Origin: Trypanosoma brucei
Lineage: Eukaryota
DNA: 64,000 nt
NCBI GenBank assembly: GCA_000002445.1
Contig: CP000067.1
Span: forward strand, 800,001 to 864,000
Reading direction: 5' to 3'
Under the pieces are notes generated by a model. It made no database searches. It saw only the letters and a list, made by a program, of their open reading frames with translations, and was not told the origin of the DNA. Made by a program: the position numbers and the translations under genes. Each line of letters opens with the position of its first letter. Position 1 is the first letter of the stretch. Below are positions 42,869 to 60,889 of this stretch, piece after piece.

Positions 42869-42926
42869 ACCACCGCCGGTTTCGCGGGCGAATTTCTGTT
42901 ATAAACTTACTCCCGCAGTAAAAATA

Positions 42927-42999
42927 TGCGATCGGTGAGGCTCGAACTCACGACCTTGGGATTATGAAACCCACGCGCTGCCGACTGCGCCACGCTCGC
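42927..42999 (-). tRNA. tRNA-Met (anticodon CAT), elongator type (G1:C72, T54)
   Basis: Acceptor GCGAGCG/CGATCGC (one mismatch), anticodon stem with GGG:CCC, loop TTCATAA, T-arm GTGAG-TTCGAGC-CTCAC. The sequence is identical to the plus-strand copy at 60774-60846. Confidence 0.75.
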
Positions 43000-45900
43000 A
43001 GCAGCTTCCGTCACATTTCGGATTGCCTTTTAACGGCTGGAAATCAGTTTCCAACCAGCAGGCTCATTCTGTAAATTCGCGCTGGGAAGCTTACATCCGC
43101 TTCTTCTATGCGAACACAACAATATACTTTCAAAATAACTACTCACTGTGAAAGTATCATATTTTACTGTTTTTATGTCGTCCCACTGAAGGAGTTTGGT
43201 GTATACATGAAGCATCCGCCGCAACGACAGCTGAAATAACACCTTTTCTCCACGCGAACGCCATTGAATATGGGTTGCCTAGAGGACTGGACGGAACAAC
43301 GGGAAGTACGTGTACACGGCGTCTGGAGCTCGTAAAAAATTAAATGGAATAGTTATACTTGTATTTATTTCAACGGTTAAGAAGATTGATCGTTATGGTA
43401 AAAGTATGGAAAGAAGTAAAAATAAGGTAGCGTTGAATGAGGAGTCGTGAAGGGGATGAAAATGAAAGAATGCTCCAACTCGCAGACTTTATTCTCACTA
43501 ACTAGATCCGCTTTACCGTATATTTCAATGTAGTATAAGAGTGTTATTCTTCCGCGAGGTGAGTGTGAGATTTGTAAAGGTGAGCATCCCCTCACGCTGT
43601 TGGTACAGAGCCATCGGTGTCGGAAGCGGCTGCTGCCATATATCCGCGGAATGTGAATGACCTCCAGGAAACAGTAGAAGCCACCAGAAAGGAAGTAAAG
43701 TGAGATTTTCCCATGATAATCCTAGAATCAACGCTAGCCCTTGGTTTCTCACAAGTTTGTATCTTTTTTTTTCCTTTATCGTCTTGTTACGTTTTGCAAT
43801 TCACCCTTTTTTTTCGAGCCTCTCCTTAAACTTTTTTTTCAAGAACCTTTCTCGTTTCTTATTTAAATAATTATTAGAGTTTATATCCTGGATACCTTCA
43901 TGAAGTTCTTTTGCGTCCCTTTTTGAAACCTATGTGCATGGCACCGTTGTAATGTTTCACAAATCCTGTTGCATTCCATGCGATTGAGATTCATATCTTC
44001 CCTGGAGGCGTCAGAAATTGCAGAGTAATGGTGAGTTGAGTTTACCGTTAGGGGGAGGCCAAATGACTGTTCGCACCCTGTCATCAGGGAGACATGGCAG
44101 CTCACCGGCTGTTGGTTGTTGGGGTAACGGGGGAAGTGGAAACGATATTGGCTCCCTGATGTGGGAACCGATATCTTTGTTGTCCCTTGCACGCTCTTGC
44201 ATGTTCCCGTGGGCGTGTAGGGACAACTCCTGTTGTGGAGAAGACATCAGAGGCAACTGTAATTCACCTACTGGCGTATGGTAAGGGACTGTCTCTTCAA
44301 ATTTTTTGGGGGGAAAAAGGAAGGCTTCTTTTGCGTTTTGAAGGGGACATACATCCACGCGACGAAGAAGTGAAATGCAAAATGATGCCTGTATTTCCGG
44401 AACATTGATATAGCAAACCCTTCTAGGGGTTGACGAGTGTCAAAATCGGCAGAAAATAGCACAGGTAGAATGCAAGGCTCGTAACAAAATGGAAACTGGA
44501 AGAGTGTCAGTTAAACCGAAACTCGCTCAGGAGTAGTGGAACACACTCGTGTCAATATTTTTCTGTGGCCAAATCTGGAATCACCTGACCACTACTGGAA
44601 GGTTGCATGGAAGAGATAGTTTGAAGGTTTGCAGAAAGGCAATGGAGTAGCAATTCGACGAAGGAGGAAACTTAAATACCCCACATATCACGCGGAATGC
44701 TGCCTTGGAATAGGATTCCGCAGAATATGAGGGATAAATGTTATTGCCGCCTGAAGGAATAATAGTCACTTATAGGGATAGGGGTTTACGATGGGAATTA
44801 GGCAGTTCCTTCAGCTGTTGGAAGTTTTGAAGCAAATAGACAAGACAGCAAAAACAATGAACTTCCTGAGGAATCAGAGCAGGCAATGCAAAAGGCACTG
44901 ACCGAAGCGCAGAGTAGAACACGATACAAATGTAGATGGTGCGATTATTAGCGTGTTCATGTGTCGGGGCCCATTCTGCACACAAGGAACAAACACTCGG
45001 TGGAAGTTGGAATGAAAAAAGATACAAATGATAAAGCATCTCCGGCATCAAAGACAGCTCCAAAGACCCTCCAACGCTCGCAGTACAAAATGCGTGCAAC
45101 AAAGTGACCTCACTGAACTCATGCAGCGGAAAGGCGAATGCAAAATAGGAAAAAAAGCACAACACTGTAAAAAGTGGGTACTACTCATCTTCCCTAAAAC
45201 CGTCACAACACCCCTCCCCAGGAAGCGCTGCGTAGAGAAAGCGGTCGAAAATGCGGCAAACAGATGGTTGCCGTTTCGCATGCAACTGGCACGTTTCCAT
45301 GCAAGCTATTTCAACCAAAGGATTTGGAGCTAAACACAGAGGAGCGTCAACAGACTCAAGATAACTGTCAAAGGAATTCACACTGAAACGACCATGGGTT
45401 GGTTCAACACAAAAAAACACGCTCTTAATTAACTCTATAAGATTCTTTCGCATTCCACAGTTTCTCACGTCTCCACTGACTTGTTTCCTCTCTACGAAAA
45501 AGCAGCTCTACTTGTTTGCTACACGTATCTAAAGGGATACTGACACTTTTTTGAAACGTGTTCATCGCCTCATATCGCTTATCTTCAGACTGTTCCCACA
45601 AAGGAGCTGAAGAGCTTAATAAAAATAATAAAAATATGTTCGCATTCATACCATCAAACCCCAATAACGGAAAACATTGAAGAAAAGAATTTCCCTGCAG
45701 TTACTGATATAACATGAAGACCAACAAAAGAACTTACTCAACACTCCATAGATGGTATGTAATTAACATGCACCCAGAAACATACGCAGCCGATAGATAA
45801 TAGAAGGATCGAAATAAGTCCTCAAAATATATGCGATACAGCCTCCACTTTTTTTTTGACCTTCGCCTACGCACAAACCGCTATAAAATTGCTATGTTCC

Positions 45901-47179
45901 TTTTGAGTCGACAATTATTTTGCGTTTCTGTCAGCGCATATATCGATCTTTTCAAAAACTTTCAAACAATGCGTACAATCCTCCCCACCTAGGCAATTGC
46001 AACCAAATTTTACCAACCACCTTTACCACATATTTTGCCGAGAAAATACCCCGTGATTTGATTTTTCGTTAAATTTTTCGCCATGGAAAAGTGCATTTGT
46101 TGCTTTTCTTCGCTTCATTAATTTTACCACTTACTCTAGTAGTGTGTTTCAGGACCTCCAATAATTTGCTGCTATCGTTTATTTTGTTGGAGAATTTCTC
46201 TTCGCTAGATAAAACTTTACTGAAGGTTTTGAACGTTGTCAGTAAATCTGGCTTCTGCGGTGCACAAGCGCCGTATATTTATTTTTTTCATAAGTGCGTG
46301 CCTCAGAAATAGCACTTCCCTGGCTCAGTAATGGGACAACCACGCCCCTGTTGACTTTATTTTGAAGCTTTCTCTTACTACATCTCGGAGTAAGTTTCTT
46401 TCCCTCATGAGCTCATAAATTTCCACCACTGGTTCTTTCTCTTTTCTAGAGATGTCATTTTCACACGTCAAACCAGCTGTGATGACCTCAGATGTTCTAT
46501 TTTTTATTTTCAGTGTGGTCCCAAGGTCTCTTTCATGTAGTGAAGTTCCGGAATTGGTCTTTTATGGCTTTCATCTGTCTTTGTTCACTTCTTTTTTCAC
46601 TTTGTTTCTGCGAGTCACATATTCCAACCGTTGTCACTATGTTTTGTTAGCTCCTTGGTAGTATGTCTGTTCTGACCCACAGTAATCTGGCACTTCTTTC
46701 TTTCCATCCGTTCCATAGTGTTCATATAACCTCACCTTCGTCGTCGCAGACAAAACCATCATTTGCTCTTGATCACCTTCTTTGTACACGTAACGTTCTA
46801 TTTTCTCCCCCTTGCCATACACACGCAAATACGCAAAAATGGAGAGAAAAGTATACATCCTTGCAACCTGAACTCCCTTGTTTACCTATAACTTCAACAT
46901 AGTTCGGTCTTTTCTCGATCCACTGTATCCCCTTCTGAAAAAAAGACAAAGCATATGAGCGTACATGCTTCGTATCAAACGAAAACTCAAACTGAAGCAC
47001 GTGTGTGACCATGCATGCTCTCGCGTGATATTTAGTATCGTATACCTGTGCTACTAAGAAAATATAAAGATGCGCGCAAAGAGGAAAGGGGGTGTCTATG
47101 ACAATAGTGGCTCTGAAGATGAAGCTTAAAAAGGGAAGTAACACAAACGAGTGGAAACTGTATTCACACATTCTTGATA

Positions 47180-48109
47180 TTATACTGAAGACGCCATAAG
47201 ACTACTGAAAAGGGAATGGAGTTTGTCAGAGAGGGTGTCAATTCTGGAAGCACGTTCCGACAGCTTAGAAAGCATGACTTCAATTTCTGAGGATACATCA
47301 TTTATTTCTTTGAGGTGAGGAAGAAAAGACTTGAAAACTCTTGTTACGTTCACATCTTCTACCAGGCCGTATCTATTCGCAAGGACCTTGTCCCTACCCA
47401 AATTACCCCTTATTCCCCTGTGTTTGAAGATGTGTCCATGGGAAGTGGACACCGAATCAACTCTGTCAGCCAGTTTTCTTCCTCCAGTGCTATACGCCGT
47501 TCCATTGTGAAACCTCAAGTCGACGTGCTCGTCCCTGCTGCTGTCAAATTCGGTAATTATATCAGAAACGTCCCTTCCAGTTAAGGTTCCATCACACGTG
47601 ACTTGTATCCCATTATTCCTACAAAAGCCATGTGAATTATTCAGCATGCGCACTGCCTCCGATCCAACTCTGTACATCTCCTCCATTGTGGCTGCATACC
47701 TGGTTCCGGTTCTTACAACATCCATTGCCTTTTCCTCCATATAAGAAACACTAAGATCGAATTTCTTCCGTAAGTAGCTTTCACCTTCGAAAACACTCTC
47801 CATCTCATTTAATATTTCCTTCATTTTATCACCCTTCTCTTTTTTCATAAATGGTTTTCCGCGTAGGAATAATTCTCTCCACGCTGCATTCTGTTCTTCT
47901 GCCGAATACCTCTTCTCATACACCTCCTCTGCATGTACTCTAGTTCTTAAAAGTAGATCCTCCGTCACATTAATCATCCAATTAAGCTTCTTCACGACAC
48001 AGTCAATTTGTTTAAGGGTTGAGAGTGCTTCTTTATCAGTCTCCTGCATTCGAGAATCCACCAAGACAACAGAAATTGCAGCAAACACTACCGGAACTAT
48101 CCTCACCAT
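47180..48109 (-). CDS. array unit 1, 'A'-type secreted protein: signal peptide, ~310 aa, several N-glycosylation sequons, no C-terminal hydrophobic/GPI-type tail. The ORF opens at 48187.
   Basis: Paralog of 49729-50658, 52260-53204 and 54814-55740. Shares 'IDCVVKKLNWMINVTEDLLLRTRVHAEEVYEKRYSAEE'. Confidence 0.7.
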   Translation of the reverse strand: MVRIVPVVFAAISVVLVDSRMQETDKEALSTLKQIDCVVKKLNWMINVTEDLLLRTRVHAEEVYEKRYSAEEQNAAWRELFLRGKPFMKKEKGDKMKEILNEMESVFEGESYLRKKFDLSVSYMEEKAMDVVRTGTRYAATMEEMYRVGSEAVRMLNNSHGFCRNNGIQVTCDGTLTGRDVSDIITEFDSSRDEHVDLRFHNGTAYSTGGRKLADRVDSVSTSHGHIFKHRGIRGNLGRDKVLANRYGLVEDVNVTRVFKSFLPHLKEINDVSSEIEVMLSKLSERASRIDTLSDKLHSLFSSLMASSV

Positions 48110-48254
48110 CCCAAGCACTTGTACCACGTAAAAGAGAACTACAGAAAAATACACGTTCTTTAAGAGAAGCACCACACACACACACACGCTAGTAGCGTGA
48201 AACTTACAATTGTAAAAATATTTTAGAAAATTACTAACATTTCCCCACCTATTT

Positions 48255-49373
48255 CTAAAACGGTACCAAGACGCACAAAAGCAACGCTACCCATGGTAGA
48301 GTTTGTTGAAACTTCACCACACCATTATTATCTTCACTATAATTATCATTCCATGGAGAATCCTTCGCGTTTCCTAATGTTTCCGTAAGTTCATTGGTCC
48401 TTTCCTTCATTTTAACAATACTTCTGACTTTTTCTTCAAGTTCCAGAAGCAACCTATCGAGTACAGCTCGTTGAGCTGTGATGGAGGTGTTTCCTGCAGA
48501 TATCTTTATGACGCTGGCACTCAGCAGATCGATTAGTTCCTGAAATTCTTCTCCAATAGAACTGAAGTTTGCCATAAGTCTGTCATTCTGTGTGTAAAAG
48601 AGGCCACCAGAAAGTTCATTGATAAAGGGCTTCTTCCCTTTTGTGTACGGCTGGTATGTCGTCGTGATATAGCATCCATAAACAGCATCGGCACCTTGAT
48701 CTCCTGCATTTCCCATAGTCAAACTGAGTTCTGTATTAAGAGGATTTTCATACTCAGCAAGGCCACCCTCGCTGTGCTGTGGTGGCTCAACTGTGCAGTC
48801 TCTGGGAACACTGCCGCGTTTACCACCTCTTATGCAATCGCCAGTTGCCCCTCCATCCACCACAAGACAGCAATTTCCATATCCTAGTGCTGCATGGTGG
48901 AAAACTTCCACCATATCCTTAATCCAGTACGCGTACGAGTCAGACATATTCAGAAGGTTCCACGATGGCAACCTCATAGCCCGCAGTGAAGTATTCATGT
49001 TTTTAATGCTTTTTTTTAACTCCAATAGTGACTCTTCCGTTTCAATCAACAACTTTGCCACCTCATTCACTCTTTTACCTCCATCTGGAATTACTTCTTT
49101 CAGAACATCCACTAAAATTGTTTTTGTTCGAACACGTGCACTGTAGTGAGCTACAATTTTTTCACAGTCTTCCACTATTTTCTCCCCGAATTTCATATTA
49201 TGTGTCACATTGTTCCTCAGTTCCCTCAGCTTCCTAACTATACTACAGATGGCATTTGCATCACTTTGTGTCAGTGCCTTGCCCTTACCCTTTTCATCAC
49301 CCTCCGGTCCACTGTTAGCACATGCCACCACCAGAAAACTAAACATAATCACCACTCCTCCAACTGAAATCAT
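48255..49373 (-). CDS. array unit 1, 'B'-type surface glycoprotein: signal peptide 'MISVGGVVIMFSFLVVACA', ~375 aa, C-terminal hydrophobic GPI-type tail 'WVALLLCVLVPF'. The ORF opens at 49439.
   Basis: Paralog of the B copies at 50780, 53338 and 55871. Cys pairs such as 'CCLVVDGGATGDC' and many NxS/T sequons. Confidence 0.7.
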   Translation of the reverse strand: MISVGGVVIMFSFLVVACANSGPEGDEKGKGKALTQSDANAICSIVRKLRELRNNVTHNMKFGEKIVEDCEKIVAHYSARVRTKTILVDVLKEVIPDGGKRVNEVAKLLIETEESLLELKKSIKNMNTSLRAMRLPSWNLLNMSDSYAYWIKDMVEVFHHAALGYGNCCLVVDGGATGDCIRGGKRGSVPRDCTVEPPQHSEGGLAEYENPLNTELSLTMGNAGDQGADAVYGCYITTTYQPYTKGKKPFINELSGGLFYTQNDRLMANFSSIGEEFQELIDLLSASVIKISAGNTSITAQRAVLDRLLLELEEKVRSIVKMKERTNELTETLGNAKDSPWNDNYSEDNNGVVKFQQTLPWVALLLCVLVPF

Positions 49374-49728
49374 ATTATCACCTTCATACACAAAACAAGC
49401 AAAAAGGAGCTTTGAAAGCATGTGCTTCTTATTCCCCATATCATACTGTTATTCAAGTAAAGACAAATCTTCGCTGACACATTATCAAGGCACCCAAAAA
49501 CATGATATCGCAATGCGACCACACGTAGTCGGCCAGAAGCAGCAATAGCATATAAACACACATTCATATTTGCACATGCACATTCATTTCATGGTTATTG
49601 GACGGTTATTTTATGGTTATTTGCAAGAGGAGGGTGCAGTGAGAGTGTTAATACTGCTGACAGTTGTTGAGGCACAGGGTGTAAAAAGAGAAGGTGAGCG
49701 AAAGAGGCGTGTGTTCTCTTTTTCATTT

Positions 49729-50658
49729 TTAAGCTGTGGATATGGTGATGCTGCTGAAGATTGACTGGAGTTCCTTTTCGAGAGCGTCGATTCTGGAAGT
49801 TTGTTCCAACAGCTTGGAAGGCGTGGCTTCAATTTCGGAGATGATGTCGTTGATTTCTCTTAGAGGTGTGACAAACAACTTGAGAAGCTCTGATGCATTC
49901 ACCTTTTCTACCGAGCGAAGTTTATTCGTTTGGACGTTGTCTTTACCCAAATTGTTCCTTATTCCTCTGTGCTTGAGGACGAGCCCAAGGGAGGTGGACG
50001 CCGTATTGACTTTATCGGCCAATTTGTTTCCCCCATGGCTCTGAAACCCTCCACCGGTAAATGACAAGTCCATATAATCAGCGTCGCTGTCGAAATCGCC
50101 AACAATACCGGAAATATCTTTCCCAACAAAAGTTGTCCCGCACTTGACGTATGCACCATTATCCCCACAATAGCCATGCGACTTATTTACAATACATACT
50201 GCCTCTAATCCAACTCTGTACATCTCCACCATTGTGGCTGCATACCTGGTTCCGGTTCTTACAACATCCATCACCTTTTCCTCCAGATAAGAAACATTAA
50301 GGTTAAATTTCTTCCGTAAGTAGCTTTCACCTTCGAAAACACTCTCCATCTCATTTAATATTTCCTTCATTTTATCACCCTTCTGTTTTTTCATAAATGG
50401 TTTTACGTACACGAATAATCGTTCCCAGGCTGCGTATCTTTCCTCCGCCGAATACCTCTTCTCATACACCTCCTCTGCATGCACTCTAGTTCTTAAAAGT
50501 AGATCCTCCGTCACATTAATCATCCAATTAAGTTTCTTCACGACACAGTCAATTTGGTTAAGAGTTGTCAGTGACTCGTCGTTGTCCGCTTCTGGTGACA
50601 TGTTCTCTGCCAACACAACCCAAACTACAAAAAGCATCACTAGAAGTATCCTTATCAT
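49729..50658 (-). CDS. array unit 2, 'A'-type secreted protein (no GPI-type tail)
   Basis: Paralog of the A family. Signal peptide 'ILLVMLFVVWVVLA'. Confidence 0.7.
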   Translation of the reverse strand: MIRILLVMLFVVWVVLAENMSPEADNDESLTTLNQIDCVVKKLNWMINVTEDLLLRTRVHAEEVYEKRYSAEERYAAWERLFVYVKPFMKKQKGDKMKEILNEMESVFEGESYLRKKFNLNVSYLEEKVMDVVRTGTRYAATMVEMYRVGLEAVCIVNKSHGYCGDNGAYVKCGTTFVGKDISGIVGDFDSDADYMDLSFTGGGFQSHGGNKLADKVNTASTSLGLVLKHRGIRNNLGKDNVQTNKLRSVEKVNASELLKLFVTPLREINDIISEIEATPSKLLEQTSRIDALEKELQSIFSSITISTA

Positions 50659-50779
50659 CCTATAAACTTATTCCACACAAAATCGAACTACAGAAAATAA
50701 TGCCCCTTTCCGGAAAGAGACCACACCGCTAGTAACATGAAGCTGTTATTAAAAATATTTTATAAAATTACTCACTTTC

Positions 50780-51904
50780 TCAACTATTTCCAAATACAAA
50801 TGGGAGAAGAAGCAGAGCCACTCCTAGCAGAGTTTGCTGAACCCTTGCTACACTGTCACTCTCATTACTCTCTTTATCATTCCAATGAATATGTTTCACT
50901 ATTCCTAGTGTTTCTGTAAGTTCATTGGTTGTTTCCTTTTTTTCCAGAATATATCTGACTCTTTCTTCAAGTTCCAGAAGCAACCTATCGAGTACAGCTC
51001 GTTGAGCTGTGATGGAGGTGTTTCCTGCAGATATCTTTATGACGCTGGCACTCAGCAGATCGATTAGTTCCTGAAATTCTTCTCCAATAGAACTGAAGTT
51101 GGCAACGACGTTGTTATTCTGTGTGTAAAAGAGTCCTCCTGAAAGTTCATAAATGAGAGATTTCCTCCCCGAAGTGTAAGACTGATGTGTCGTCGTGATA
51201 TAGCAGCCATACTCCGAGTAGTTTCTGTAGTTTCCTGCATTTCCCATCGTTAAAGTGAGTCCTTCATCAAGAGGGTTTTTGTACTCAGCAAGGCTACCCT
51301 CGCTGCGCTGTAGCGGCTCAACTATGCAGTCTCTGGGAACACTGCCGCGTTTACCGTTCTTCATGCAATCGCCCGTTGCCCCTCCATCCACCACAAGACA
51401 ACAACTTAGAGTGCTAAGTGCCGCGTGGGCAAAACTCTCCACCGTGTCCTTAATCCAGTACGCGTACGAGTCAGACATATTCAGAAGGTTCCACGATGGC
51501 AACCTCATATATCCAAGCGACGAATGCATTTGCGCAACTAAATTTCTTAATTCATCTTTCAGTACTTTCATATCGCTCAAAAGCTTTATTATTTCAGTTA
51601 AAATTTCATCTTCTTCCGGAATTACTTCTTTCAAAACATCCACTAAAATTGTTTTTGTTTGAACACGTGCACTGTAGTGAGCTACAATTTTTTCACAGTC
51701 TTCCACTATTTTCTCCCCGAATTTCATATTATGTGTCACATTGTTCCTCAGTTCCCTCAGCTTCCTAACTATACTACAGATGGCATTTGCATCACTTTGT
51801 GTCAGTGCCTTGCCCTTACCCTTTTCATCACCCTCCGGTCCACTGTTAGCACATGCCACCACCAGAAAACTAAACATAATCACCACTCCTCCAACTGAAA
51901 TCAT
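50780..51904 (-). CDS. array unit 2, 'B'-type GPI-type surface glycoprotein. The ORF opens at 51970.
   Basis: Its N-terminal 100 aa are identical to B1 and B3. The C-terminal hydrophobic tail is 'LLGVALLLLPFVF'. Confidence 0.7.
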   Translation of the reverse strand: MISVGGVVIMFSFLVVACANSGPEGDEKGKGKALTQSDANAICSIVRKLRELRNNVTHNMKFGEKIVEDCEKIVAHYSARVQTKTILVDVLKEVIPEEDEILTEIIKLLSDMKVLKDELRNLVAQMHSSLGYMRLPSWNLLNMSDSYAYWIKDTVESFAHAALSTLSCCLVVDGGATGDCMKNGKRGSVPRDCIVEPLQRSEGSLAEYKNPLDEGLTLTMGNAGNYRNYSEYGCYITTTHQSYTSGRKSLIYELSGGLFYTQNNNVVANFSSIGEEFQELIDLLSASVIKISAGNTSITAQRAVLDRLLLELEERVRYILEKKETTNELTETLGIVKHIHWNDKESNESDSVARVQQTLLGVALLLLPFVFGNS

Positions 51905-52259
51905 ATTATCACCTTCATACACAAAACAAGCAAAAAGGAGCTTTGAAAGCATGTGCTTCTTATTCCCCATATCATACTGTTATTCAAGTAAAGACAAATC
52001 TTCGCTGACACATTATCAAGGCACCCAAAAACATGATATCGCAATGCGACCACACGTAGTCGGCCAGAAGCAGCAATAGCATATAAACACACATTCATAT
52101 TTGCACATGCATATTCATTTCGTGGTTATTGGACGGTTATTTTATGGTTATTTGCAAGAGGAGGGTGCAGTGAAAGTGTTAATACTGCTGACAGTTGTTG
52201 AGGCACAGGGTGTAAAAAGAGAAGGTGAGCGAAAGAGGCGTGTGTTCTCTTTTTCATTT

Positions 52260-53204
52260 TTAAGCTGTGGATATGGTGATGCTGCTGAAGATTGACTGGA
52301 GTTCCTTTTCGAGAGCGTCGATTCTGGAAGTTTGTTCCAACAGCTTGGAAGGTGTGGCTTCAATTTCGGAGATGATGTCGTTGATTTCTCTTAGAGGTGT
52401 AATAAAGGACTTGAATATCCTTGGTGAGTGAACAAACTCTACCAAGCCGTTTCCATTCGTGATGACCTTGGATTTACCCAAGTTACTTCTTATTCCTCTG
52501 TGCTTGATGATGTGCCCATAAGAGGTGGACGCCGCATTAACTTTATCGGCCAACTTGCTGCCTCCGTGTCCGCTCTGCGCTACTTTCTGTGTTTTCCTGT
52601 TTTGGAATGACAAGTCGATGTGTTCAGAGCTGTTTTCCAACACTCTAACGACGTCAGAAATGTCTTTCCCAACAAAAGTTGTCCCGCACTTGACGTATGC
52701 ACCATTATCCCCACAATAGCCATGCGACTTATTTACAATACATACTGCCTCTAATCCAACTCTGTACATCTCCACCATTGTGGCTGCATACCTGGTTCCG
52801 GTTCTTACAACATCCATCACCTTTTCCTCCAGATAAGAAACATTAAGGTTAAATTTCTTCCGTAAGTAGCTTTCACCTTCGAAAACACTCTCCATCTCAT
52901 TTAATATTTCCTTCATTTTATCACCCTTCTCTTTTCTCACAAAGTTTTTTACGTATACGTATAATTCTTTCCATGTTGTGAACCTTTCCTCTAGTGAATA
53001 CTTTTTCCCATACACCTCCTCTGCATGCACTCTAGTTCTTAAAAGTAGATCCTCCGTCACATTAATCATCCAATTAAGTTTCTTCACGACACAGTCGATT
53101 CTTTTTAGAGTAAAGCATGGTTCTCTATAACTCACCTGTGTTCTTCCAGCATATGGCAACACAAAGAAAACGACGGTAACGGTCACTTGACTTATCTTAA
53201 TCAT
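52260..53204 (-). CDS. array unit 3, 'A'-type secreted protein
   Basis: The central block and C-terminus are identical to A2. Confidence 0.7.
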   Translation of the reverse strand: MIKISQVTVTVVFFVLPYAGRTQVSYREPCFTLKRIDCVVKKLNWMINVTEDLLLRTRVHAEEVYGKKYSLEERFTTWKELYVYVKNFVRKEKGDKMKEILNEMESVFEGESYLRKKFNLNVSYLEEKVMDVVRTGTRYAATMVEMYRVGLEAVCIVNKSHGYCGDNGAYVKCGTTFVGKDISDVVRVLENSSEHIDLSFQNRKTQKVAQSGHGGSKLADKVNAASTSYGHIIKHRGIRSNLGKSKVITNGNGLVEFVHSPRIFKSFITPLREINDIISEIEATPSKLLEQTSRIDALEKELQSIFSSITISTA

Positions 53205-53337
53205 TCCACACTCTTACTTCAGGAAAAACTAAGCCAGTTCGAAGAGCGTACCTTTTTTGGAAGGGCACATCGCTTACACGCTAGTAGTAATAAGCTGTCA
53301 ATTGCACAAATATTTTAGAAAATTACACACTTTCCAC

Positions 53338-54459
53338 CTATTTCCAAAATACAGAAAAGACGAAAAGAAGCAGAGCCACTTCTGATAGATTTGGTTTCTT
53401 GCTCATACCATCACTCTCATAACTCTCATTATCATACCAGGAAACATCTTCTATGCTTCCTAATCTTTTCGTAACATCCATGACTCTCTTTTTCCTTTTA
53501 AGGATATCTCCAACTTCTTCCTCAAACCTCAGTAACAAGCTGTGGAGTATAGTTCGTTGACCTGTGATAGATGTGTTCCACGTGAAAATGTCGCTGATAC
53601 TAGTGTTCAGTTGATCGATTAGTTCCTGAAATTCTTTTCCAACAGAACTGAAGTTGGCAACGACGTTGTTATTCTGTGTGTAAAAGAGTCCTCCTGAAAG
53701 TTCATTTATAAAGGATTTCTTTGTATTAAAGCCACCTGCGGTGCTTGTGATGTAGCAACCGTAACTATTTGGGGTTTTACCGTAGTTTCCTGAATTTCCC
53801 ATAGTCAAACTGAGTTCTGTATTAAGAGGATTTTCATACTCAGCAAGGCTACCCTCGCTGTGCTGTGGTGGCTCAACTATGCAGTCTCTGGGAACTATTC
53901 CTCGTTTTCGGTCAAAGGGACAATCTTCCATTGACCCTCCATCTACCACAAGACAGCAACTCCCGGGGCTAAACGCTGCATAGTGAAAAAAATCCACCAT
54001 ATCCTTAATCCAGTACGCATATGAGTCCGATATATTTACAAGGTTCCACGATGGCAACCTCATAGCCCGCAGTGAAGCATTCATGCTCGTAATTGTCTTC
54101 CCTAATCCATCCCTCAGTTCCCCCATCTTCTCCAGGATTCTTTCCATCCCACTGAAACTTGACTTTTCTTCTGCCATTACTTTCTCCAACACGCTCACCA
54201 GCATTTTCTTAGACATAACTTTCGCGCCGTAGTAACTTTTCACGTCTTCAGCCTCGTCCACTATTTTCTCCCCGAATTTCATATTATGTGTCACATTGTT
54301 CCTCAGCTCCCTCAGCTTCCTAACTATACTACAGATGGCATTTGCATCACTTTGTGTCAGTGCCTTGCCCTTACCCTTTTCATCACCCTCCGGTCCACTG
54401 TTAGCACATGCCACCACCAGAAAACTAAACATAATCACCACTCCTCCAACTGAAATCAT
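53338..54459 (-). CDS. array unit 3, 'B'-type GPI-type surface glycoprotein. The ORF opens at 54525.
   Basis: Paralog of the B family. C-terminal tail 'VALLLFVFSVFW'. Confidence 0.7.
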   Translation of the reverse strand: MISVGGVVIMFSFLVVACANSGPEGDEKGKGKALTQSDANAICSIVRKLRELRNNVTHNMKFGEKIVDEAEDVKSYYGAKVMSKKMLVSVLEKVMAEEKSSFSGMERILEKMGELRDGLGKTITSMNASLRAMRLPSWNLVNISDSYAYWIKDMVDFFHYAAFSPGSCCLVVDGGSMEDCPFDRKRGIVPRDCIVEPPQHSEGSLAEYENPLNTELSLTMGNSGNYGKTPNSYGCYITSTAGGFNTKKSFINELSGGLFYTQNNNVVANFSSVGKEFQELIDQLNTSISDIFTWNTSITGQRTILHSLLLRFEEEVGDILKRKKRVMDVTKRLGSIEDVSWYDNESYESDGMSKKPNLSEVALLLFVFSVFWK

Positions 54460-54813
54460 ATTATCACCTTCATACACAAAACAAGCAAAAAGGAGCTTTG
54501 AAAGCATGTGCTTCTTATTCCCCATATCATACTGTTATTCAAGTAAAGACAAATCTTCGCTGACACATTATCAAGGCACCCAAAAACATGATATCGCAAT
54601 GCGACCACACGTAGTCGGCCAGAAGCAGCAATAGCATATAAACACACATTCATATTTGCACATGCATATTCATTTCATGGTTATTGGACGGTTATTTTAT
54701 GGTTATTTGCAAGAGGAGGGTGCAGTGAAAGTGTTAATACTGCTGATGCTTGTAATTAACATTGGCTCAAAAGGAATTATGTTCACGCATTTTTTTTATT
54801 ATACTGAAGACGC

Positions 54814-55740
54814 TCAAAGGCTGTTAAAGAGGGATTCAAGTTTCTTTTCGAGAATAGAAAACTTGTGAACACGTTCCGACAGCTTGGAAGGTGTGGCTTC
54901 AACTTCGGAGGTGAGATTACCGACTTCCCTTAGATGTGTGACAAACAACTTGAGAAGCTTCGCTGCACTCACGTGTTCTACCAAGTCGCGTTCATCCATG
55001 AGAACTCTGGCCTTTCCCAAACTATTACCTATTCCTCTGTGCTTGATGACACGTCCAAACGTGGTCGATACATTATGAACTCTATCAGCCAGCTTGTTTC
55101 CCCCTTTACTCCAGTGACCTCCGTTCTCAAACCTTAGATCTATATTTTCTTCAGTGCCGCTACCAAATTCAGCAACGATAATAGATAAATTTCCCCCAGA
55201 GAAGGCTCTCTCGCATGTAACATTGGCTTCATAAATTTCACAACTTTTTGGTACTTCTTTTCCAGAACGCACAGCTTCCAATCCAACTCTGTACATCTCC
55301 TCCATTGTGGCTGAATACCTGATACCGACTCTTACAATAGTCATCATTTTTTTTTCAAAGTAAGAAACATTAAGGTTAAAGTTTTTCTGCAAGTAGCTTT
55401 CAGTTTCAACGATTCTCTCCATCTCATTTAATATTTCCTTCATTTTATCACCCTTCTGTTTTTTCATAAATGGTTTTACGTACACGAATAATCGTTCCCA
55501 GGCTGCGTATCTTTCCTCCAGCAAATACTTCTTTTTATATACCTTTTCTGCATGCACTCTAGCTCTTAAAAGTAGATCCTCCGTCACATTAATCATCCAA
55601 TTAAGCTTCTTCACGACACAGTCAATTTGCTTAAGAGTTGAGAGAGATTCATCTCCGTGTGTTGTTTCCGCTATAACCCCCCAAAAAACAACTAGAACAA
55701 CTAAAGTGACAGCAAACACCACCTGAATCATCCTCATCAT
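54814..55740 (-). CDS. array unit 4, 'A'-type secreted protein
   Basis: Paralog of the A family. Shares 'ERYAAWERLFVYVKPFMKKQKGDKMKEILNEME' with A2. Confidence 0.7.
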   Translation of the reverse strand: MMRMIQVVFAVTLVVLVVFWGVIAETTHGDESLSTLKQIDCVVKKLNWMINVTEDLLLRARVHAEKVYKKKYLLEERYAAWERLFVYVKPFMKKQKGDKMKEILNEMERIVETESYLQKNFNLNVSYFEKKMMTIVRVGIRYSATMEEMYRVGLEAVRSGKEVPKSCEIYEANVTCERAFSGGNLSIIVAEFGSGTEENIDLRFENGGHWSKGGNKLADRVHNVSTTFGRVIKHRGIGNSLGKARVLMDERDLVEHVSAAKLLKLFVTHLREVGNLTSEVEATPSKLSERVHKFSILEKKLESLFNSL

Positions 55741-55870
55741 ATGTACCTATTCCACGAAAAGCGAATCACAGGAAAACGTGTAGCCTTTAGTAAGGGTACA
55801 ACACACGCGGTAGTAGAACATAATTGTCGTCTGTATAAATATTTTAGATCACTTACTTCTCCACATACTT

Positions 55871-56980
55871 TTAGAAGAATACCAGGAAGAATAGAAACAG
55901 ACTCACCCCTCGGAGGGTTGGTTGCGTCCCCATACCATCGCTATTCCCACTCTCGTTACCAAACCATGGAATGTTCTTCGTGCTACCTAATGCTTCCGTA
56001 ATTGCTTTGTTCTTTTCTTTCTCAAGGACATGTCTGATTTCTTTCTTCAGCTTAAGTAGCAAACCATCGAGTACAGCTCGTTGTCTTGTAATTGATGTGT
56101 TCCACGCGGAAAAATTGTTTGTGACTCTTCTTAGCGGATCGATTAGCTCCTGAAATTCCTTTCCAACAAAAGTGAAGTTGGCCATAAGTCTGTTATTCTG
56201 TGTGTAAAAGAGGCCACCAGAAAGTTCATAAATGAGAGATTTTTTCCCCCTGCTGTAAGTGTCATTTGTTGTTGTGATGAAGCAGCCACATAGCGGGTAT
56301 TCGCCTTCGTCCCCTGCATTTCCCATCGTTAAAGTGAGTCCTTCATCAAGAGGGTTTTTGTACTCAGCAAGGCCACCCTCGCTGCGCTGTGGCGGGTAAA
56401 TAGTGCAATCCGTGGGGACACTGCCGCGTTTACCACCTCTTATGCAATCTCCCGTTGCCCCTCCATCCACCACAAGACAACAATTCCCGCTTCCGAATGC
56501 TGTCTGGGCAAAGAGTTCTACCATATCTTTCACCCAGTACGCATACGAGTCAGACATATTTGTGAGGTTCCACATTTGCACACTCATGCACCCGAGTGAA
56601 GCGTTCACATTCGTAATACTTCTTTTCAACACCTGGATCGGCTCCTCCATATCACTCAGCAGCTTTCCCATCACGCTCAACTTTTCTCCTTCTTCAGGAA
56701 TTAGTTTTCCCAAAACCTTCACTAACATTTTCTTTGCTTCAACACGTGTGCTGTAGTAAGTAGCAACGTTTTCGCCATTGTCCACGATTTTTTCACCCAA
56801 TTTCATATTACGCGTCACGTTATTTGCCAACTCCCTCAACTGTTTGACCACATTGCAAATGGCATCTGCATCACTTTGCGTCAGCGCCTTGCCCTTACCC
56901 TCGATGTCACCCTCCGCTTGACCGTAAGCACATACCACCACTAAACAAGCCACAACCATTCCCCTTTTGAGTGGCATCAT
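55871..56980 (-). CDS. array unit 4, 'B'-type GPI-type surface glycoprotein, the most diverged B copy. The ORF opens at 57019.
   Basis: Signal peptide 'MMPLKRGMVVACLVVVCAYGQA' and C-terminal tail 'LRGVSLFLFFLVFF'. Confidence 0.7.
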   Translation of the reverse strand: MMPLKRGMVVACLVVVCAYGQAEGDIEGKGKALTQSDADAICNVVKQLRELANNVTRNMKLGEKIVDNGENVATYYSTRVEAKKMLVKVLGKLIPEEGEKLSVMGKLLSDMEEPIQVLKRSITNVNASLGCMSVQMWNLTNMSDSYAYWVKDMVELFAQTAFGSGNCCLVVDGGATGDCIRGGKRGSVPTDCTIYPPQRSEGGLAEYKNPLDEGLTLTMGNAGDEGEYPLCGCFITTTNDTYSRGKKSLIYELSGGLFYTQNNRLMANFTFVGKEFQELIDPLRRVTNNFSAWNTSITRQRAVLDGLLLKLKKEIRHVLEKEKNKAITEALGSTKNIPWFGNESGNSDGMGTQPTLRGVSLFLFFLVFF

Positions 56981-57092
56981 ATTATCCCCTCCTTCCAGAA
57001 ACGCAAGAAAGGCAAACAAATTGTGGATCCCTACGTGCGTATTCAGTCGGAGAACAGATCTTGATTACAATAAGTAGAACATTTGGGCTATA

Positions 57093-58325
57093 TTACGAAA
57101 ACACCAACAAAACAAAAATGCTCACCATTAAATCGAAATGGGCATCACCCTCCGTGTCAACATCCAAATTTTCTGCCTTGCCCCAGATATCTATGTTTCC
57201 TCCAAGTTTGTACTCAAGAAACATTTCCTCAGCGTCATGCTGTAAATCTTCCAACTCGTAAATATGGGAGTTTGCTTCACTTTCATACTTCTCCATGTCT
57301 TCCATGTTCTTTGTGGCATTGGTGAGACGATTGTGCCACGGTATGCCGCCATGGGATAAGGTGTGTTTGTAATTCACACACGTTGTTCCGGGTCTGTGGC
57401 CATCACATAGAAATGTTTCATTACTCGTATCATTCACGTGGCCAAATACGCCTTCCACCTGAAACTTGTCCTGCCTCATGTTAACAGATTTATCAAACTC
57501 CTCCAATGCAGCCTTTAACAGCTTTGAGTTGGATGCAATGTGCCTGTACACGCATCCGCGCTTTACCACTTGCCAAGCATCTTTGAGTGTCATTGATGAA
57601 TTAACCTCACATTTCTCTTCGGCCAAGGCGCACTCATTGCTCATGCCCGTCCACTTATTTTTTTCTGGTCGCCTCAAGTAGGTCCTGCAGGGCGAACTAT
57701 GCCCGTTGTAATAGTAGCTGCTGCTGTTCGCCTCGTCTTTCGCCTCTCCCACACATACACAAAAAAAGTCGTTAACAAGTGTTTTTCCAGTTTCATTACC
57801 GTTGCTTCCACAGCTTTCCAGAGCAGATTCATTGCTGTTGAACAGTAAACTTTTATTAGTTTCCATAATATCGTCAATGGGTCTGTTGGTCTTATGTGCC
57901 TCATCCACTAAATCACCATACACAGCTTTCATCATGCTCTCCTCAGCCTTACTGCTCTCCCGCATCGCCCTCTTTCTATTCCTGTCAATCTCTCCCTTCA
58001 CCGCTTTTGCTCTTTTGTATAGTTTCTCAATCCCTTCACGCGCCTTTTGGCTCACAGAAGTTTCTTTTCCGTTCGCTCTCGCCTCACTCACCATTACCTC
58101 GAACCTCTTCATAATCTCATCTTCCTTCTCACGGTTTCTAAATTCCGGCCTTGGCACCTTTGCTTGAGTGATCCTGTAAATCTTACAAAGGATCTCAAAC
58201 TCTCCGGTGTTGTGTTGGTAATCAGTAATGTTGAAAACACCCTTCTGTTGACCCTGACTTCCTCTTATTGATCCCCATAAAAGAGCAACCAACAATAGCA
58301 CCCCAGCGCAACCACGTCTCTTCAT
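57093..58325 (-). CDS. VSG-like / ESAG-like GPI-type surface glycoprotein (410 aa) with a signal peptide and C-terminal hydrophobic tail. Contains the motif 'NDFFCVCVGE'.
   Basis: N-terminal 'GVLLLVALLWGSIRG', C-terminal 'LMVSIFVLLVFS', a Cys-rich central region, and many sequons. Confidence 0.65.
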   Translation of the reverse strand: MKRRGCAGVLLLVALLWGSIRGSQGQQKGVFNITDYQHNTGEFEILCKIYRITQAKVPRPEFRNREKEDEIMKRFEVMVSEARANGKETSVSQKAREGIEKLYKRAKAVKGEIDRNRKRAMRESSKAEESMMKAVYGDLVDEAHKTNRPIDDIMETNKSLLFNSNESALESCGSNGNETGKTLVNDFFCVCVGEAKDEANSSSYYYNGHSSPCRTYLRRPEKNKWTGMSNECALAEEKCEVNSSMTLKDAWQVVKRGCVYRHIASNSKLLKAALEEFDKSVNMRQDKFQVEGVFGHVNDTSNETFLCDGHRPGTTCVNYKHTLSHGGIPWHNRLTNATKNMEDMEKYESEANSHIYELEDLQHDAEEMFLEYKLGGNIDIWGKAENLDVDTEGDAHFDLMVSIFVLLVFS

Positions 58326-58435
58326 AATTTCCTATTACAACCAAATGGGAAGCAAATATCAACAACATGCCACGCAGCAGCAGTCATTTAGGAAAATGCG
58401 GAAGCTGGGAAAAGCTAAAAATATAACACGGAAAG

Positions 58436-59716
58436 TTAAGCGACAAAGGCAGTCAGCGCCATCATTGCTAAAACAGTCAAAGATATTGAAAAGCCGGCCC
58501 CATCCTCTTCCACCTCGTTCACTTCACTCTCCATCATTAAGTGTTCCAAATTCAAGTTAATCTTTGCTGCTGCACTTTTCATATTCTCCGCTAATTTCCA
58601 CAGCCTTCCAAGCAAAACCTTTGCCTCCTTATTGTGCCTTTCCATTTCCACCAGGTACTTCTCCGCATCCAGCAACCTCAGCTGCCACTCAATTCCCTTC
58701 TGCGTCAGAAGTCTATACGCATAATTCACGCACATTTGGTCATTCTTCCCCGTGCATATGTTTTCGCTGCGGTCAAAAACACCCGTATGTATTTTTTTTG
58801 CTCTCCCAAACACGTAGGTCCGAAATCCCTCCGATTCTTTCATGTTCATGATTATATTCTCCCTCTGCCTTCCAAGAAGCTTATTGAACTCCCTCACTGC
58901 ATCTTGGATTTTTTCTGGCGTTATCAATTTCAAATTTTCATTTTTTGGACAGGCTTCATCCTTTATCTTAAACCAGCCGGGGCCAAAAGCCACATCACTT
59001 CCATCATACGACACATTTTTCCACAGTTTCTTTCTACCCGGCCCCTTGATACTTTTGTGACAAACGGTCTCATTATTCTCTTCTCCAACGCACAAGCAAA
59101 AAAAGTCCCCCACGAGCGAACGCCCAGCCATGGCATCCTCAGTCGAGGGATGATACCCAGCTCCGCACGTTTCCTCTGCGGAGTTTCCTATTAAAGTGTC
59201 TCCGGTGTGCACCGCAAACTTTTCAAACTCCTCCTTCTCCATCAGCCTCCCAGCATTCGCCCCATAAACGACTTGCGCCATTCTTTCGAGTGCAAATTTC
59301 CTTGACACATTCGCCAGGCGCCGTTCCTCTCTTATTCCACTCACGAGTATGGTTGCCTTTTCCGCTAGTTTTATTAACTTCTCATGTGTTACCCTCCACC
59401 GAATAATATCATTTGCACGATGCATACTCATCTTAGCGGCCCCACTATTGTTAACTGTTCCTTTCCTCCTTTCCATAGCTTCTTTATACAAGGAATCCTT
59501 CACGTATGTCGCTTTCACAAACATCTGTAGCCTGTCGATGATACTCGTTAGATTCGCAGGCTCTTCCATTATTTTCTCTGGTTCCCCCTCCGCCAACCTC
59601 AATATCTCACACATTTGGTTGAACTCTTTTTCATTCACTAACTTTGAATCCTCTCCACACACCAAGTGGAAGGCACCAAAGGCCGTTAACAAGAATGTCA
59701 CTATGATTTCCTTCAT
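58436..59716 (-). CDS. second VSG-like GPI-type surface glycoprotein (about 426 aa from the 'MKEIIVTFLLTAFGAF' start). Contains 'GDFFCLCVGE'. The ORF opens at 59767.
   Basis: Signal peptide and C-terminal 'ISLTVLAMMALTAFVA'. Shares a Cys motif with the neighbouring gene. Confidence 0.65.
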   Translation of the reverse strand: MKEIIVTFLLTAFGAFHLVCGEDSKLVNEKEFNQMCEILRLAEGEPEKIMEEPANLTSIIDRLQMFVKATYVKDSLYKEAMERRKGTVNNSGAAKMSMHRANDIIRWRVTHEKLIKLAEKATILVSGIREERRLANVSRKFALERMAQVVYGANAGRLMEKEEFEKFAVHTGDTLIGNSAEETCGAGYHPSTEDAMAGRSLVGDFFCLCVGEENNETVCHKSIKGPGRKKLWKNVSYDGSDVAFGPGWFKIKDEACPKNENLKLITPEKIQDAVREFNKLLGRQRENIIMNMKESEGFRTYVFGRAKKIHTGVFDRSENICTGKNDQMCVNYAYRLLTQKGIEWQLRLLDAEKYLVEMERHNKEAKVLLGRLWKLAENMKSAAAKINLNLEHLMMESEVNEVEEDGAGFSISLTVLAMMALTAFVA

Positions 59717-60614
59717 TATCAAAGCCCTGCTACAAACAAAAAGAAAGTAAAGGCACCAACAAGACAATCCTCCAACCAGAAGATGCTCCTAATCGCAGAT
59801 AAAAGAGATCACTTTTGTAACGCAAGAAAAGCATCCAAAGCCACCAACCGAGCATCCCAACCGTCATACAAACGTATTTCCGAATGGCCAAACCACCGTA
59901 ATTTTAAAAATCTCTCACACATTCACGATTGAACACTATACGTGATAAAAAAAGCGTGCTCTGATTTAAGCCTTCCCAATGCATTGCTGAGCCCACGCAC
60001 GGCCCCTCTCAACCTTAACGCGCAGTTTTTCACGGAGTGAAACCAACCAAAAAAGCAAGCAGGTCACAGCTTTTTTAATGTCTTCACGCGCAGGCAGCTT
60101 ATATATAATTACTGCGGCAAAGAGAGGAACAGAGTAATGGAAAGTATTTAAAGGATCACAGACAAAAAGAAGCAGAACAAACCTGAACGTTATTCCGTGG
60201 TTACTGCCTTGTGGGGAAAGAGGGCCGCGGCATGGGAAAGCGCTTTAATTCAGGTCTCGGCGCCACACGGAACTGCAGAGGCTCACGCGCCAATGAGTGG
60301 CGACAAACCGACTGACAGCGATATCACACTTCTGAACTTCCTTTTCCTTTGTGGTGAGTGCCCTGAGGCTCATCCTCCGTTTTTCTCCTGAAGCTTCCCC
60401 GAATCAATTTTATCCTCCTTAACAGCGATGAAGCAGCGGAGTTATGCGCAATAGACAACCGCTGCGGGAGCGGCGAAACATTGAAATGTCCTCGACAGAG
60501 GATACTGGCACGGCAGCTGCAACGGTCGGCAAGTTCCAAAACTCATCGTCTTGGACCGTTCTCTCGAGTAACGTGCCCGTCGCCGCATCAAGCACGTTGA
60601 CCTCTAAAAAAAGT

Positions 60615-60686
60615 TTCCGGTGCCGGGGATCGAACCCGGGTCTAGCGGGTGAGAGCCGCTTGTTCTAGCCACTATACCACACCGGA
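60615..60686 (-). tRNA. tRNA-Glu (anticodon CTC)
   Basis: Acceptor TCCGGTG/CACCGGA, anticodon stem AGCGG/CCGCT with loop CTCTCAC, T-arm CCGGG-TTCGATC-CCCGG, and T7 after the 3' end. Confidence 0.8.
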
Positions 60687-60773
60687 GATGCATCTCGTCA
60701 AATCTACACTTACGTTCTAAACCATAAGTTGTGATGCAGACGTTCATAATTTACTATCGAGCGGCCCCGCACC

Positions 60774-60846: not shown

Positions 60847-60889
60847 CTTTTTTGATTTCCACCTGCGAGTTTTTCAGCAGGAGAAAACC

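What the first reader, a model, noticed from the sequence alone, without database searches (positions are those of the whole stretch)
49210..54634. A homogenised ~340-nt segment covers the B-gene 5' end and its upstream spacer in units 1-3, even though the coding bodies diverge
Three stretches (49210-49548, 51741-52079, 54296-54634) are so similar that an antisense ORF-track artefact translates to the identical 112-aa peptide in all three. Each stretch runs from the A→B intergenic spacer through the B signal peptide and first ~100 codons. The fourth unit (B4) differs here. Near-identity of the 5' UTR, trans-splice region and signal peptide beside hypervariable ectodomain sequence suggests concerted evolution of a regulatory or processing module. 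It could also be the homology tract that seeds conversion events.
Basis: seen in the sequence. Interest (0 to 1): 0.5.

Follow-up and report, generated by a model that had tools for sequence, protein, structure and literature searches.

The report
Gene-conversion patch in trypanosome surface-gene array
Three neighbouring copies of a Trypanosoma brucei surface-protein gene share a ~490-base near-identical stretch, most likely because recombination between repeat units recently overwrote it; this is a real but ordinary feature of the parasite's tandem gene arrays.

Summary
The window is T. brucei TREU927 chromosome 4, 800,001-864,000. The finding lies in a minus-strand array of four two-gene units. 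B is the ESAG11-related Fam3 family (Tb927.4.3210/3230/3250/3270). A is Fam4 (Tb927.4.3200/3220/3240/3260).

The identity is real but wider than reported. It spans 490 nt (49171-49660 = 51702-52191 = 54257-54746) with four variable sites and sharp edges.

Synonymous divergence among B1-B3 is 0-0.02 inside the tract and 0.45-0.77 in the rest of the same genes. The non-coding part is equally identical. The homologous region of the other haplotype (T. b. gambiense, T. b. equiperdum) is only 76% identical, and its distal 158 nt do not align.

Units 1 and 2 share a larger tract of 783 nt, and other pairs share shorter patches. T. b. equiperdum gained a unit by unequal crossover within an A gene.

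The best explanation is recent gene conversion (concerted evolution), not a conserved regulatory module. B4 differs because it is the first gene of the array and follows an ESAG2-like gene. The pattern is already described in general for T. brucei arrays (Jackson 2007). Interest is low.

The parts
49171..49660 (-). Homogenised tract, copy 1. It covers the distal part of the A2->B1 spacer, the B1 5' region, the signal peptide and the first ~46 residues of the mature protein (Tb927.4.3210).
   Evidence: 490 nt, 99.4% identical to copies 2 and 3. Edges are sharp.
51702..52191 (-). Homogenised tract, copy 2 (A3->B2 spacer plus the 5' end of B2, Tb927.4.3230).
54257..54746 (-). Homogenised tract, copy 3 (A4->B3 spacer plus the 5' end of B3, Tb927.4.3250). 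The limits of this copy define the three-way tract.
49087..49869 (-). Larger unit 1/unit 2 tract: 783 nt with 6 differences, paired with 51618-52400. It runs from the last ~140 nt of A2/A3 through the whole spacer into B1/B2.
   Evidence: A2 and A3 have identical C-termini.
51618..52400 (-). Partner of the 783-nt unit 1/unit 2 tract.
49371..49409 (-). Probable processing and start signals of B1. They comprise an 18-nt polypyrimidine tract (49409-49392), an AG (49383-49382) and the ATG of M23 (49373-49371). The same elements occur in B2 (51940-51902) and B3 (54495-54457).
   Evidence: tracts and AG; the polyY tract and the ATAATATGAT context are conserved in 927 B1, 927 B4 and both DAL972 B genes, whereas the annotated ATG1 is not. 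M23 is invariant. No experimental splice-site mapping was available.
49210..49548 (+). Antisense 112-aa ORF with a TTG start. Identical ORFs lie at 51741-52079 and 54296-54634.
56781..56941 (-). Diverged counterpart in B4 (Tb927.4.3270) of the coding part of the tract, 77% identical. There is no similarity upstream of it.
   Evidence: In this segment dS is ~1.0-1.1 and dN 0.247 against B1-B3.
47180..57019 (-). The array. In order of transcription: B4 55871-56980 (annotated start), A4 54814-55740, B3 53338-54525, A3 52260-53204, B2 50780-51970, A2 49729-50658, B1 48255-49439, A1 47180-48109.
   Evidence: Gene IDs and chromosome coordinates come from Kolev et al. 2010 Table S2. Families come from Jackson et al. 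2013 Table S1.

Best explanation
The 490-nt tract is a recent non-reciprocal recombination patch (gene conversion) between units of a tandem array of old, diverged paralogues. One unit's version of 'distal spacer + B 5' end' was copied onto the others. At least two overlapping events are needed: a ~490-nt exchange involving unit 3 and a ~783-nt exchange between units 1 and 2. Too little time has passed since then for more than 2-3 differences per pair to accumulate. Because of its position, the tract carries the probable trans-splicing signal, the short 5' UTR, the signal peptide and the first ~46 mature residues of B. It also carries the distal 3' flank of the upstream A gene, so B1-B3 now share these elements. 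That sharing is a consequence of the exchange, not its cause. The 3' edge lies at the end of the best-conserved N-terminal block of B. That block probably supplied the homology needed for the exchange and limited its extent. What is shown: the identity, the edges, the dS contrast, the mosaic of tracts, the lack of conservation between haplotypes, and an unequal crossover in a related strain. What is inferred: conversion as the molecular mechanism, the number and direction of events, and the role of the conserved block.
For: (1) The coding part of the tract has dS = 0-0.023 and dN = 0 among B1-B3. The rest of the same genes has dS 0.45-0.77, and B4 in the same segment has dS ~1.0-1.1. Identity at silent and non-coding sites indicates recency, not protein-level selection. 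(2) Identity drops sharply on both sides, from 99.4% to 53% and 39%. Two breakpoints per tract indicate a conversion patch rather than a single unequal crossover. (3) Exact runs of 359-451 nt compare with a shuffle maximum of 44-70 nt. (4) The array is a mosaic. Other identical patches link different pairs: 88, 268 and 139 nt for U1-U2; 105 nt for U1-U3; 84-110 nt for A1 with A2 or A3. The nearest relative changes along the unit. (5) The 927 tract is only 76% identical to the homologous region of the DAL972/equiperdum haplotype, and its distal 158 nt have no match there. Paralogues are therefore much closer than 'orthologues'. (6) Recombination at this locus is directly visible. T. b. equiperdum has three units where DAL972 has two, and its middle A gene is a chimera of the two DAL972 A genes with a breakpoint near nt 840. 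(7) The 680-nt inverted repeats flanking the cluster also evolve in concert: 99.4% identical within 927, 98.1% within DAL972, ~95.5% between strains. (8) The general pattern is documented for T. brucei arrays by Jackson 2007 (PMC1855330). That paper reports invariant non-coding regions beside diverged CDS, conversion events spanning start codons, and terminal copies with remodelled intergenic sequence.
Against: The flanks of the tract are so diverged (39-53% locally) that classical homologous recombination would have little homology to start from. The event may have used short homology, or the flanks may have been replaced later (see rival 3). The same region was exchanged at least twice, which could indicate a local preference or selection. 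No second assembly or read data for the 927-type haplotype was available, so neither event direction nor assembly accuracy could be checked independently.
Confidence: 0.8

Rival explanations
1. The tract is a regulatory or processing module (A 3' flank, trans-splice region, B 5' UTR, signal peptide) kept identical by purifying selection, or by selection for co-regulation of B1-B3.
For: It covers the intergenic region and the gene's 5' end, where processing signals lie. A polyY/AG/ATG arrangement inside it is conserved in all B genes. Jackson 2007 notes that UTRs are often less variable than CDS in surface-gene arrays. The region was exchanged at least twice.
Against: Silent sites in the coding part are identical too, with dS 0-0.02. 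The non-coding part is not conserved in the other haplotype: 76% identity, with 158 nt unalignable. B4 lacks the tract. The A4->B3 spacer lacks the 25-nt polyY tract that lies just outside the tract in units 1 and 2. The edges do not match any feature boundary. There is no Rfam hit, and the fold is no better than shuffles, z = +1.26. Only ~40 nt around the polyY/AG/ATG are conserved across haplotypes, not the 490 nt.
Confidence: 0.08
2. The identity is an assembly or consensus artefact of a repeated region in the reference genome.
For: Repeats are error-prone in assemblies. I could not examine reads.
Against: The three copies differ at four sites, and each site has a different pattern. Each copy sits in unique, diverged flanks within units of different length (2531, 2555 and 2524 nt). 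There are no Ns in the window. Collapse would remove units rather than create patches. An independent long assembly of T. b. equiperdum shows the same array type, with a perfectly duplicated 2.3-kb segment.
Confidence: 0.03
3. The direction is reversed. The tract is a remnant of a fairly recent duplication of whole units, and the divergent gene bodies were later imported piecewise from diverged donors, such as the other allele or ectopic family members, as in mosaic VSG formation.
For: The array is a mosaic. Two very different haplotypes of this locus exist in the T. brucei group, 72-77% identical across the units, so diverged allelic donors exist in principle. The low-homology flanks are equally awkward for either direction.
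Against: No donor was found. The gene bodies of units 1-3 are no closer to the DAL972/equiperdum units (72-77%) than to each other. Protein searches found no other close relatives. dS is uniformly high for all pairs outside the patches.
Confidence: 0.07

Closest known systems
Concerted evolution and gene-conversion tracts in T. brucei tandem gene arrays (Jackson 2007, BMC Evol Biol 7:54; e.g. arrays Tb24, Tb62/62a, Tb93 BARP)
   Same: Non-coding regions are invariant or nearly so beside diverged coding sequence. Conversion events span start codons and UTRs. Different parts of a repeat unit have inconsistent phylogenetic affinities. Terminal copies have unrelated intergenic sequence.
   Different: This array is not among the 47 listed in that paper's Table 1. 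The repeat unit here holds two unrelated genes in alternation. The tract covers only part of the spacer plus ~200 nt of coding sequence, amid unusually old paralogues (dS 0.45-1.0).
Unequal crossing-over in tandem arrays (birth-and-death and concerted evolution; Nei & Rooney 2005, as cited)
   Same: Copy number differs between strains: 4, 3 and 2 units. A chimeric A gene in T. b. equiperdum marks a crossover point.
   Different: A single unequal crossover gives one breakpoint and changes copy number. The 490-nt and 783-nt tracts have two breakpoints each and leave the unit count unchanged, so they fit conversion better.
Segmental (mosaic) gene conversion among VSG genes and recombination among ESAG6/7 copies in T. 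brucei (from general knowledge; ESAG6/7 recombination is mentioned in Jackson 2013)
   Same: Short patches are exchanged between 70-90% identical surface-protein genes, with junctions in regions of limited homology.
   Different: [quoted passage not shown] No link to antigenic variation is known. The genes are low-abundance, bloodstream-biased transcripts (Table S1).

Membership tests
Gene-conversion / concerted-evolution tract in a tandem array | A stretch of near-identity significantly longer than the surrounding divergence allows | tested here: met
   Exact runs of 359-451 nt against a shuffle maximum of 44-70 nt. The 490-nt tract is 99.4% identical inside pairwise alignments that are 72-74% identical overall.
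Gene-conversion / concerted-evolution tract in a tandem array | Silent and non-coding sites are homogenised as much as replacement sites | tested here: met
   dS is 0-0.023 inside the tract and 0.45-0.77 outside it in the same gene pairs. The 287 nt of non-coding sequence have 3 variable sites.
Gene-conversion / concerted-evolution tract in a tandem array | Incongruent relationships along the repeat unit (mosaic structure) | tested here: met
   Different pairs are nearest relatives in different segments. Several separate identical patches exist.
Gene-conversion / concerted-evolution tract in a tandem array | Paralogues within a genome are more alike than the homologous region between strains | tested here: met
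   99.4% among the three 927 copies, against 76% (partial) to DAL972 and equiperdum.
Gene-conversion / concerted-evolution tract in a tandem array | Two breakpoints with unit number unchanged (conversion rather than crossover), and donor and recipient identified | tested here: inconclusive
   Two sharp edges per tract are seen. Donor, recipient and number of events cannot be determined from one haplotype.
Conserved cis-regulatory / RNA-processing module | Sequence conserved across strains or haplotypes and across all family members | tested here: not met
   76% identity over nt 159-488 and no match for nt 1-158 in DAL972/equiperdum. B4 is 77% identical over 161 coding nt only. Only ~40 nt around the polyY/AG/ATG are shared.
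Conserved cis-regulatory / RNA-processing module | Edges coincide with functional boundaries, or a structured or known RNA element is present | tested here: not met
   The edges lie in mid-spacer and at annotated codon 89/90, inside the predicted first long helix (low-confidence model). There is no Rfam family other than the flanking tRNAs. MFE z = +1.26.
Conserved cis-regulatory / RNA-processing module | Mapped spliced-leader acceptor and poly(A) sites lie within the tract and depend on it | not testable with these tools
   Kolev 2010 lists all ten genes Tb927.4.3200-3290 as giving no detectable transcript in procyclic cells. The Nilsson 2010 supplements had no entry, and no Siegel 2010 supplements were held.
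Fam3 (ESAG11-related, B genes) and Fam4 (A genes) of the T. brucei cell-surface phylome | Identity with the family exemplars Tb927.4.3270 and Tb927.4.3260 | tested here: met
   The window proteins are 100% identical to the TREU927 entries. The coordinates equal Tb927.4.3200-3270 minus 800,000. Exemplars and their SP/GPI calls come from Jackson 2013 Table S1.
Assembly artefact (collapsed or cross-polished repeat) | Copies are indistinguishable, and depth or junction reads are anomalous | tested here: inconclusive
   The copies are distinguishable at four sites and lie in unique flanks. Read depth cannot be examined here.

The most novel reading that the evidence does not exclude
The tract is more than an accident of recombination. 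On this reading it is a preferred exchange cassette anchored on the conserved N-terminal block of B. It is homogenised repeatedly, so that B1-B3 share one expression and secretion leader. It also serves as the homology anchor that lets the diverged ectodomain bodies be reshuffled, and units gained or lost, between repeats and between the two very old haplotypes of this locus. That would make it a chromosome-internal counterpart of segmental VSG and ESAG6/7 recombination.
Probability: 0.07. Interest if true: 0.5.

Novelty: new member of a known kind. Interest (0 to 1): 0.2.

Why it matters
The practical value is for annotation and mapping. Short reads cannot be assigned uniquely within about 0.5-0.8 kb at the 5' ends of Tb927.4.3210, .3230 and .3250. 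The annotated start codons of these three genes are probably 22 codons too far upstream. The identical tracts predict instability in unit number. The finding adds one more example of conversion acting on old, diverged surface-protein paralogues in T. brucei, and it shows that this locus exists as two very different haplotypes in the T. brucei group. It does not reveal a new mechanism or a new regulatory element.

Tried and rejected
(1) Known RNA element in the tract: the Rfam scan of 41000-62000 found only the seven flanking tRNAs. The non-coding 287 nt fold no better than shuffles.

(2) Published splice and poly(A) maps. Kolev 2010 lists the whole cluster as undetected in procyclic cells. Nothing was found in the Nilsson 2010 supplements, and no Siegel 2010 supplements are held. 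The trans-splice site is therefore only predicted.

(3) Homology between A and B, which would make the unit an internal duplication: BLASTP E = 1.1 and hhalign probability 0.24%. Not supported.

(4) Structure of B, to place the tract edge in the fold: the AlphaFold model was too poor to use (pLDDT 37), so no fold search was run on it.

(5) Positive selection on the ectodomain ('hypervariable'): dN/dS is 0.31-0.45 overall, and no window exceeds 0.68.

(6) GC-biased conversion: the tract has 40.8% GC against 42.8-43.1% in neighbouring coding sequence, so there is no enrichment.

(7) Extra copies of the tract elsewhere in the window, or downstream of A1: none. ORF 46773-47171 is unrelated to B.

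(8) Whether Jackson 2007 had already analysed this array: it is not in that paper's Table 1 or text.
Full report
IDENTITY OF THE REGION. The B1 protein (48255-49439, minus strand) is 100% identical to a TREU927 protein on a 1,590,432-bp contig. All eight array proteins and their two upstream neighbours match TREU927 entries exactly. Kolev et al. 2010 Table S2 gives chromosome 4 coordinates that equal window coordinates plus 800,000. It names the genes Tb927.4.3200 (A1) to Tb927.4.3270 (B4), followed by Tb927.4.3280 (ESAG2-like) and Tb927.4.3290 (VSG_B-domain protein) (Pfam). In Jackson et al. 2013 Table S1 the B genes are Fam3, 'ESAG11-related' (signal peptide, GPI signal). The A genes are Fam4 (signal peptide, no GPI, four members). 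That paper describes Fam4-7 as T. brucei-specific families that are arrayed in tandem next to strand-switch regions and are bloodstream-biased.

All these genes are on the minus strand. The order of transcription is Tb927.4.3290.3280, B4, A4, B3, A3, B2, A2, B1, A1.

THE OBSERVATION. The three antisense ORFs give identical 112-aa peptides. They are TTG-initiated and antisense to B, so they are ORF-listing artefacts. They do, however, reflect real DNA identity. Multiple and pairwise alignments place the three-way tract at 49171-49660 = 51702-52191 = 54257-54746. It is 490 nt long, with four variable sites and 2-3 differences per pair.

Outside the tract, identity between unit 3 and unit 1 falls at once to 53% on the 3' side and 39% on the 5' side. 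Units 1 and 2 share a larger tract, 49087-49869 = 51618-52400 (783 nt, 6 differences), which reaches into the last ~140 nt of A2/A3. The longest exact runs (451, 359 and 369 nt) far exceed the maxima of 70, 54 and 44 nt in 2000 column shuffles.

B4 has only a 77%-identical counterpart of 161 coding nt and no upstream similarity. That is expected, because its upstream neighbour is not an A gene.

CONTENT OF THE TRACT. On the sense strand it starts 68 nt after the A stop codon. It then runs through the rest of the annotated 289-nt spacer and 89.7 annotated codons.

The annotated start of B1-B3 is probably wrong. An 18-nt polypyrimidine tract, an AG 8 nt downstream of it, and the context ATAATATGAT lie within the first 22 annotated codons. 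These elements are conserved in B4 and in both DAL972 B genes, whereas ATG1 is not (GTG or ATA in the other genes). M23 is an invariant alignment column, and B4 and DAL972 B370 are annotated from the equivalent Met. A canonical signal peptide (MISVGGVVIMFSFLVVACANS) follows M23 directly.

The tract therefore most likely holds ~287 nt of non-coding sequence, including the probable trans-splice signal and a very short 5' UTR. It also holds the signal peptide and ~46 mature residues. No experimental splice or poly(A) map was available. The whole cluster is listed as undetected in procyclic cells.

WHY IT IS IDENTICAL. Nei-Gojobori estimates give dS = 0-0.023 and dN = 0 among B1-B3 in the coding part of the tract. 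The rest of the same genes gives dS 0.45-0.77 (dN 0.20-0.34). B4 against B1-B3 in the same segment gives dS ~1.0-1.1 and dN 0.247. Identity at silent and non-coding sites next to near-saturated silent divergence means recent copying, not constraint.

The homologous region of the only other haplotype available is found in T. b. gambiense DAL972 (L003) and T. b. equiperdum (L002; organism named). It is 76% identical over nt 159-488 of the tract and shows no match to nt 1-158. The sequence is therefore not conserved over time.

There is no Rfam family in the tract and no excess folding energy. Each tract has two sharp edges, and the 490-nt three-way tract lies wholly inside the larger 783-nt unit 1/unit 2 tract. 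This indicates at least two conversion-type events rather than one discrete element.

The rest of the array is also a mosaic of shorter identical patches that link different pairs.

Recombination at this locus can be seen directly between strains. DAL972 has two units and T. b. equiperdum has three. The extra equiperdum unit is 100% identical from the A 3' end through the whole of B. Its middle A gene is a chimera of the two DAL972 A genes, with a breakpoint near nt 840. This is the signature of an unequal crossover.

The 3' edge of the 927 tract coincides with the end of the most conserved N-terminal block of B (pN 0.06-0.14 there). That block plausibly provided the homology for exchange; this step is inference.

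COMPARISON WITH WHAT IS KNOWN. Jackson 2007 surveyed 47 T. brucei arrays. The paper reports concerted evolution as widespread and describes arrays whose non-coding regions are invariant while the CDS diverge. It also reports gene-conversion events that span start codons and UTRs, and terminal copies with unrelated intergenic sequence. The present tract matches that description on every feature I could test.

The Tb927.4.3200-3270 array itself is not in that paper's table or text. No paper in the library mentions these gene IDs apart from Tb927.4.3290. The tract is therefore an undescribed example of a well-described process.

RIVALS. A selected regulatory module is not supported, for the reasons above. 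It cannot be fully excluded without expression data.

Misassembly is unlikely. The copies carry private variants, the flanks are unique and the units differ in length. Read depth could not be checked.

The reverse history holds that the tract is a remnant of a recent duplication and that the gene bodies were imported later. It lacks any identifiable donor. It cannot be excluded without the second 927 haplotype.

VERDICT.

Noticed in passing
window 42121-42800 and 61012-61691; also 42920-42999 and 60774-60853: The whole 18-kb surface-gene cluster is bracketed by a 680-nt inverted repeat that carries tRNA genes (tRNA-Val in both arms, plus an 80-nt tRNA-Met arm pair). The cluster comprises Tb927.4.3290, .3280 and the B/A array. 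The arms are 99.4% identical within 927, 98.1% within DAL972 and only ~95.5% between strains, so they too evolve in concert. The segment between them could in principle invert.
   Followed up: partly
L002 10000-17330 (T. b. equiperdum) vs L003 10000-14802 (T. b. gambiense DAL972): Copy number of the array differs between strains: 4 units in TREU927, 3 in equiperdum, 2 in DAL972. The equiperdum middle A gene (L002 13869-14807) is a chimera: nt 1-~840 match DAL972 A310 and the last ~100 nt match A311. The following spacer and B are 100% identical to the next unit. This is a clear unequal-crossover product.
   Followed up: yes
window 44000-62000 vs L002/L003: The locus exists as two very different haplotypes. 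The TREU927 units are only 72-77% identical to the DAL972/equiperdum units, and even the flanks are only 92-95% identical. I recall genome-wide identity between these subspecies as far higher, but this was not checked here. The cause is not resolved; it could be an old balanced polymorphism, introgression or rapid turnover.
   Followed up: partly
window 49374-49439, 51905-51970, 54460-54525 (minus strand): The first 22 annotated codons of Tb927.4.3210, .3230 and .3250 are probably not coding. They contain the conserved polypyrimidine tract and AG. The conserved initiator is M23, which is followed by a canonical signal peptide.
   Followed up: partly
window 50784-50817, 53338-53375, 55868-55897 (minus strand): The B->A spacers are very short (121-145 nt). 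The only polypyrimidine tract plus AG upstream of A2, A3 and A4 lies inside the 3' end of the B coding sequence, in the Leu/Phe-rich GPI-signal region. If that tract drives A trans-splicing, it is unclear how B transcripts are polyadenylated. Alternative or overlapping processing of B and A is possible.
   Followed up: no
A genes, e.g. window 49729-50658 (minus strand): The AlphaFold model of A2 (pLDDT 74.6) is a long three-helix bundle. Its best PDB matches are trypanosome surface receptors (HpHbR, ISG65, transferrin receptor ESAG6/7, factor H receptor, MISP), all weak (E 0.003-0.2, TM 0.3-0.55). A lacks a GPI signal and B has one, and the two alternate strictly, which recalls the ESAG7/ESAG6 pair. 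Sequence profiles show no A-B homology (hhalign probability 0.24%).
   Followed up: partly
window 46773-59767 (Tb927.4.3200-3290): All ten genes of the cluster are listed by Kolev et al. 2010 (Table S2) as producing no detectable transcript in procyclic cells. The cluster lies at the end of a minus-strand unit that converges on plus-strand genes ending near 41246, with a tRNA cluster in between.
   Followed up: no
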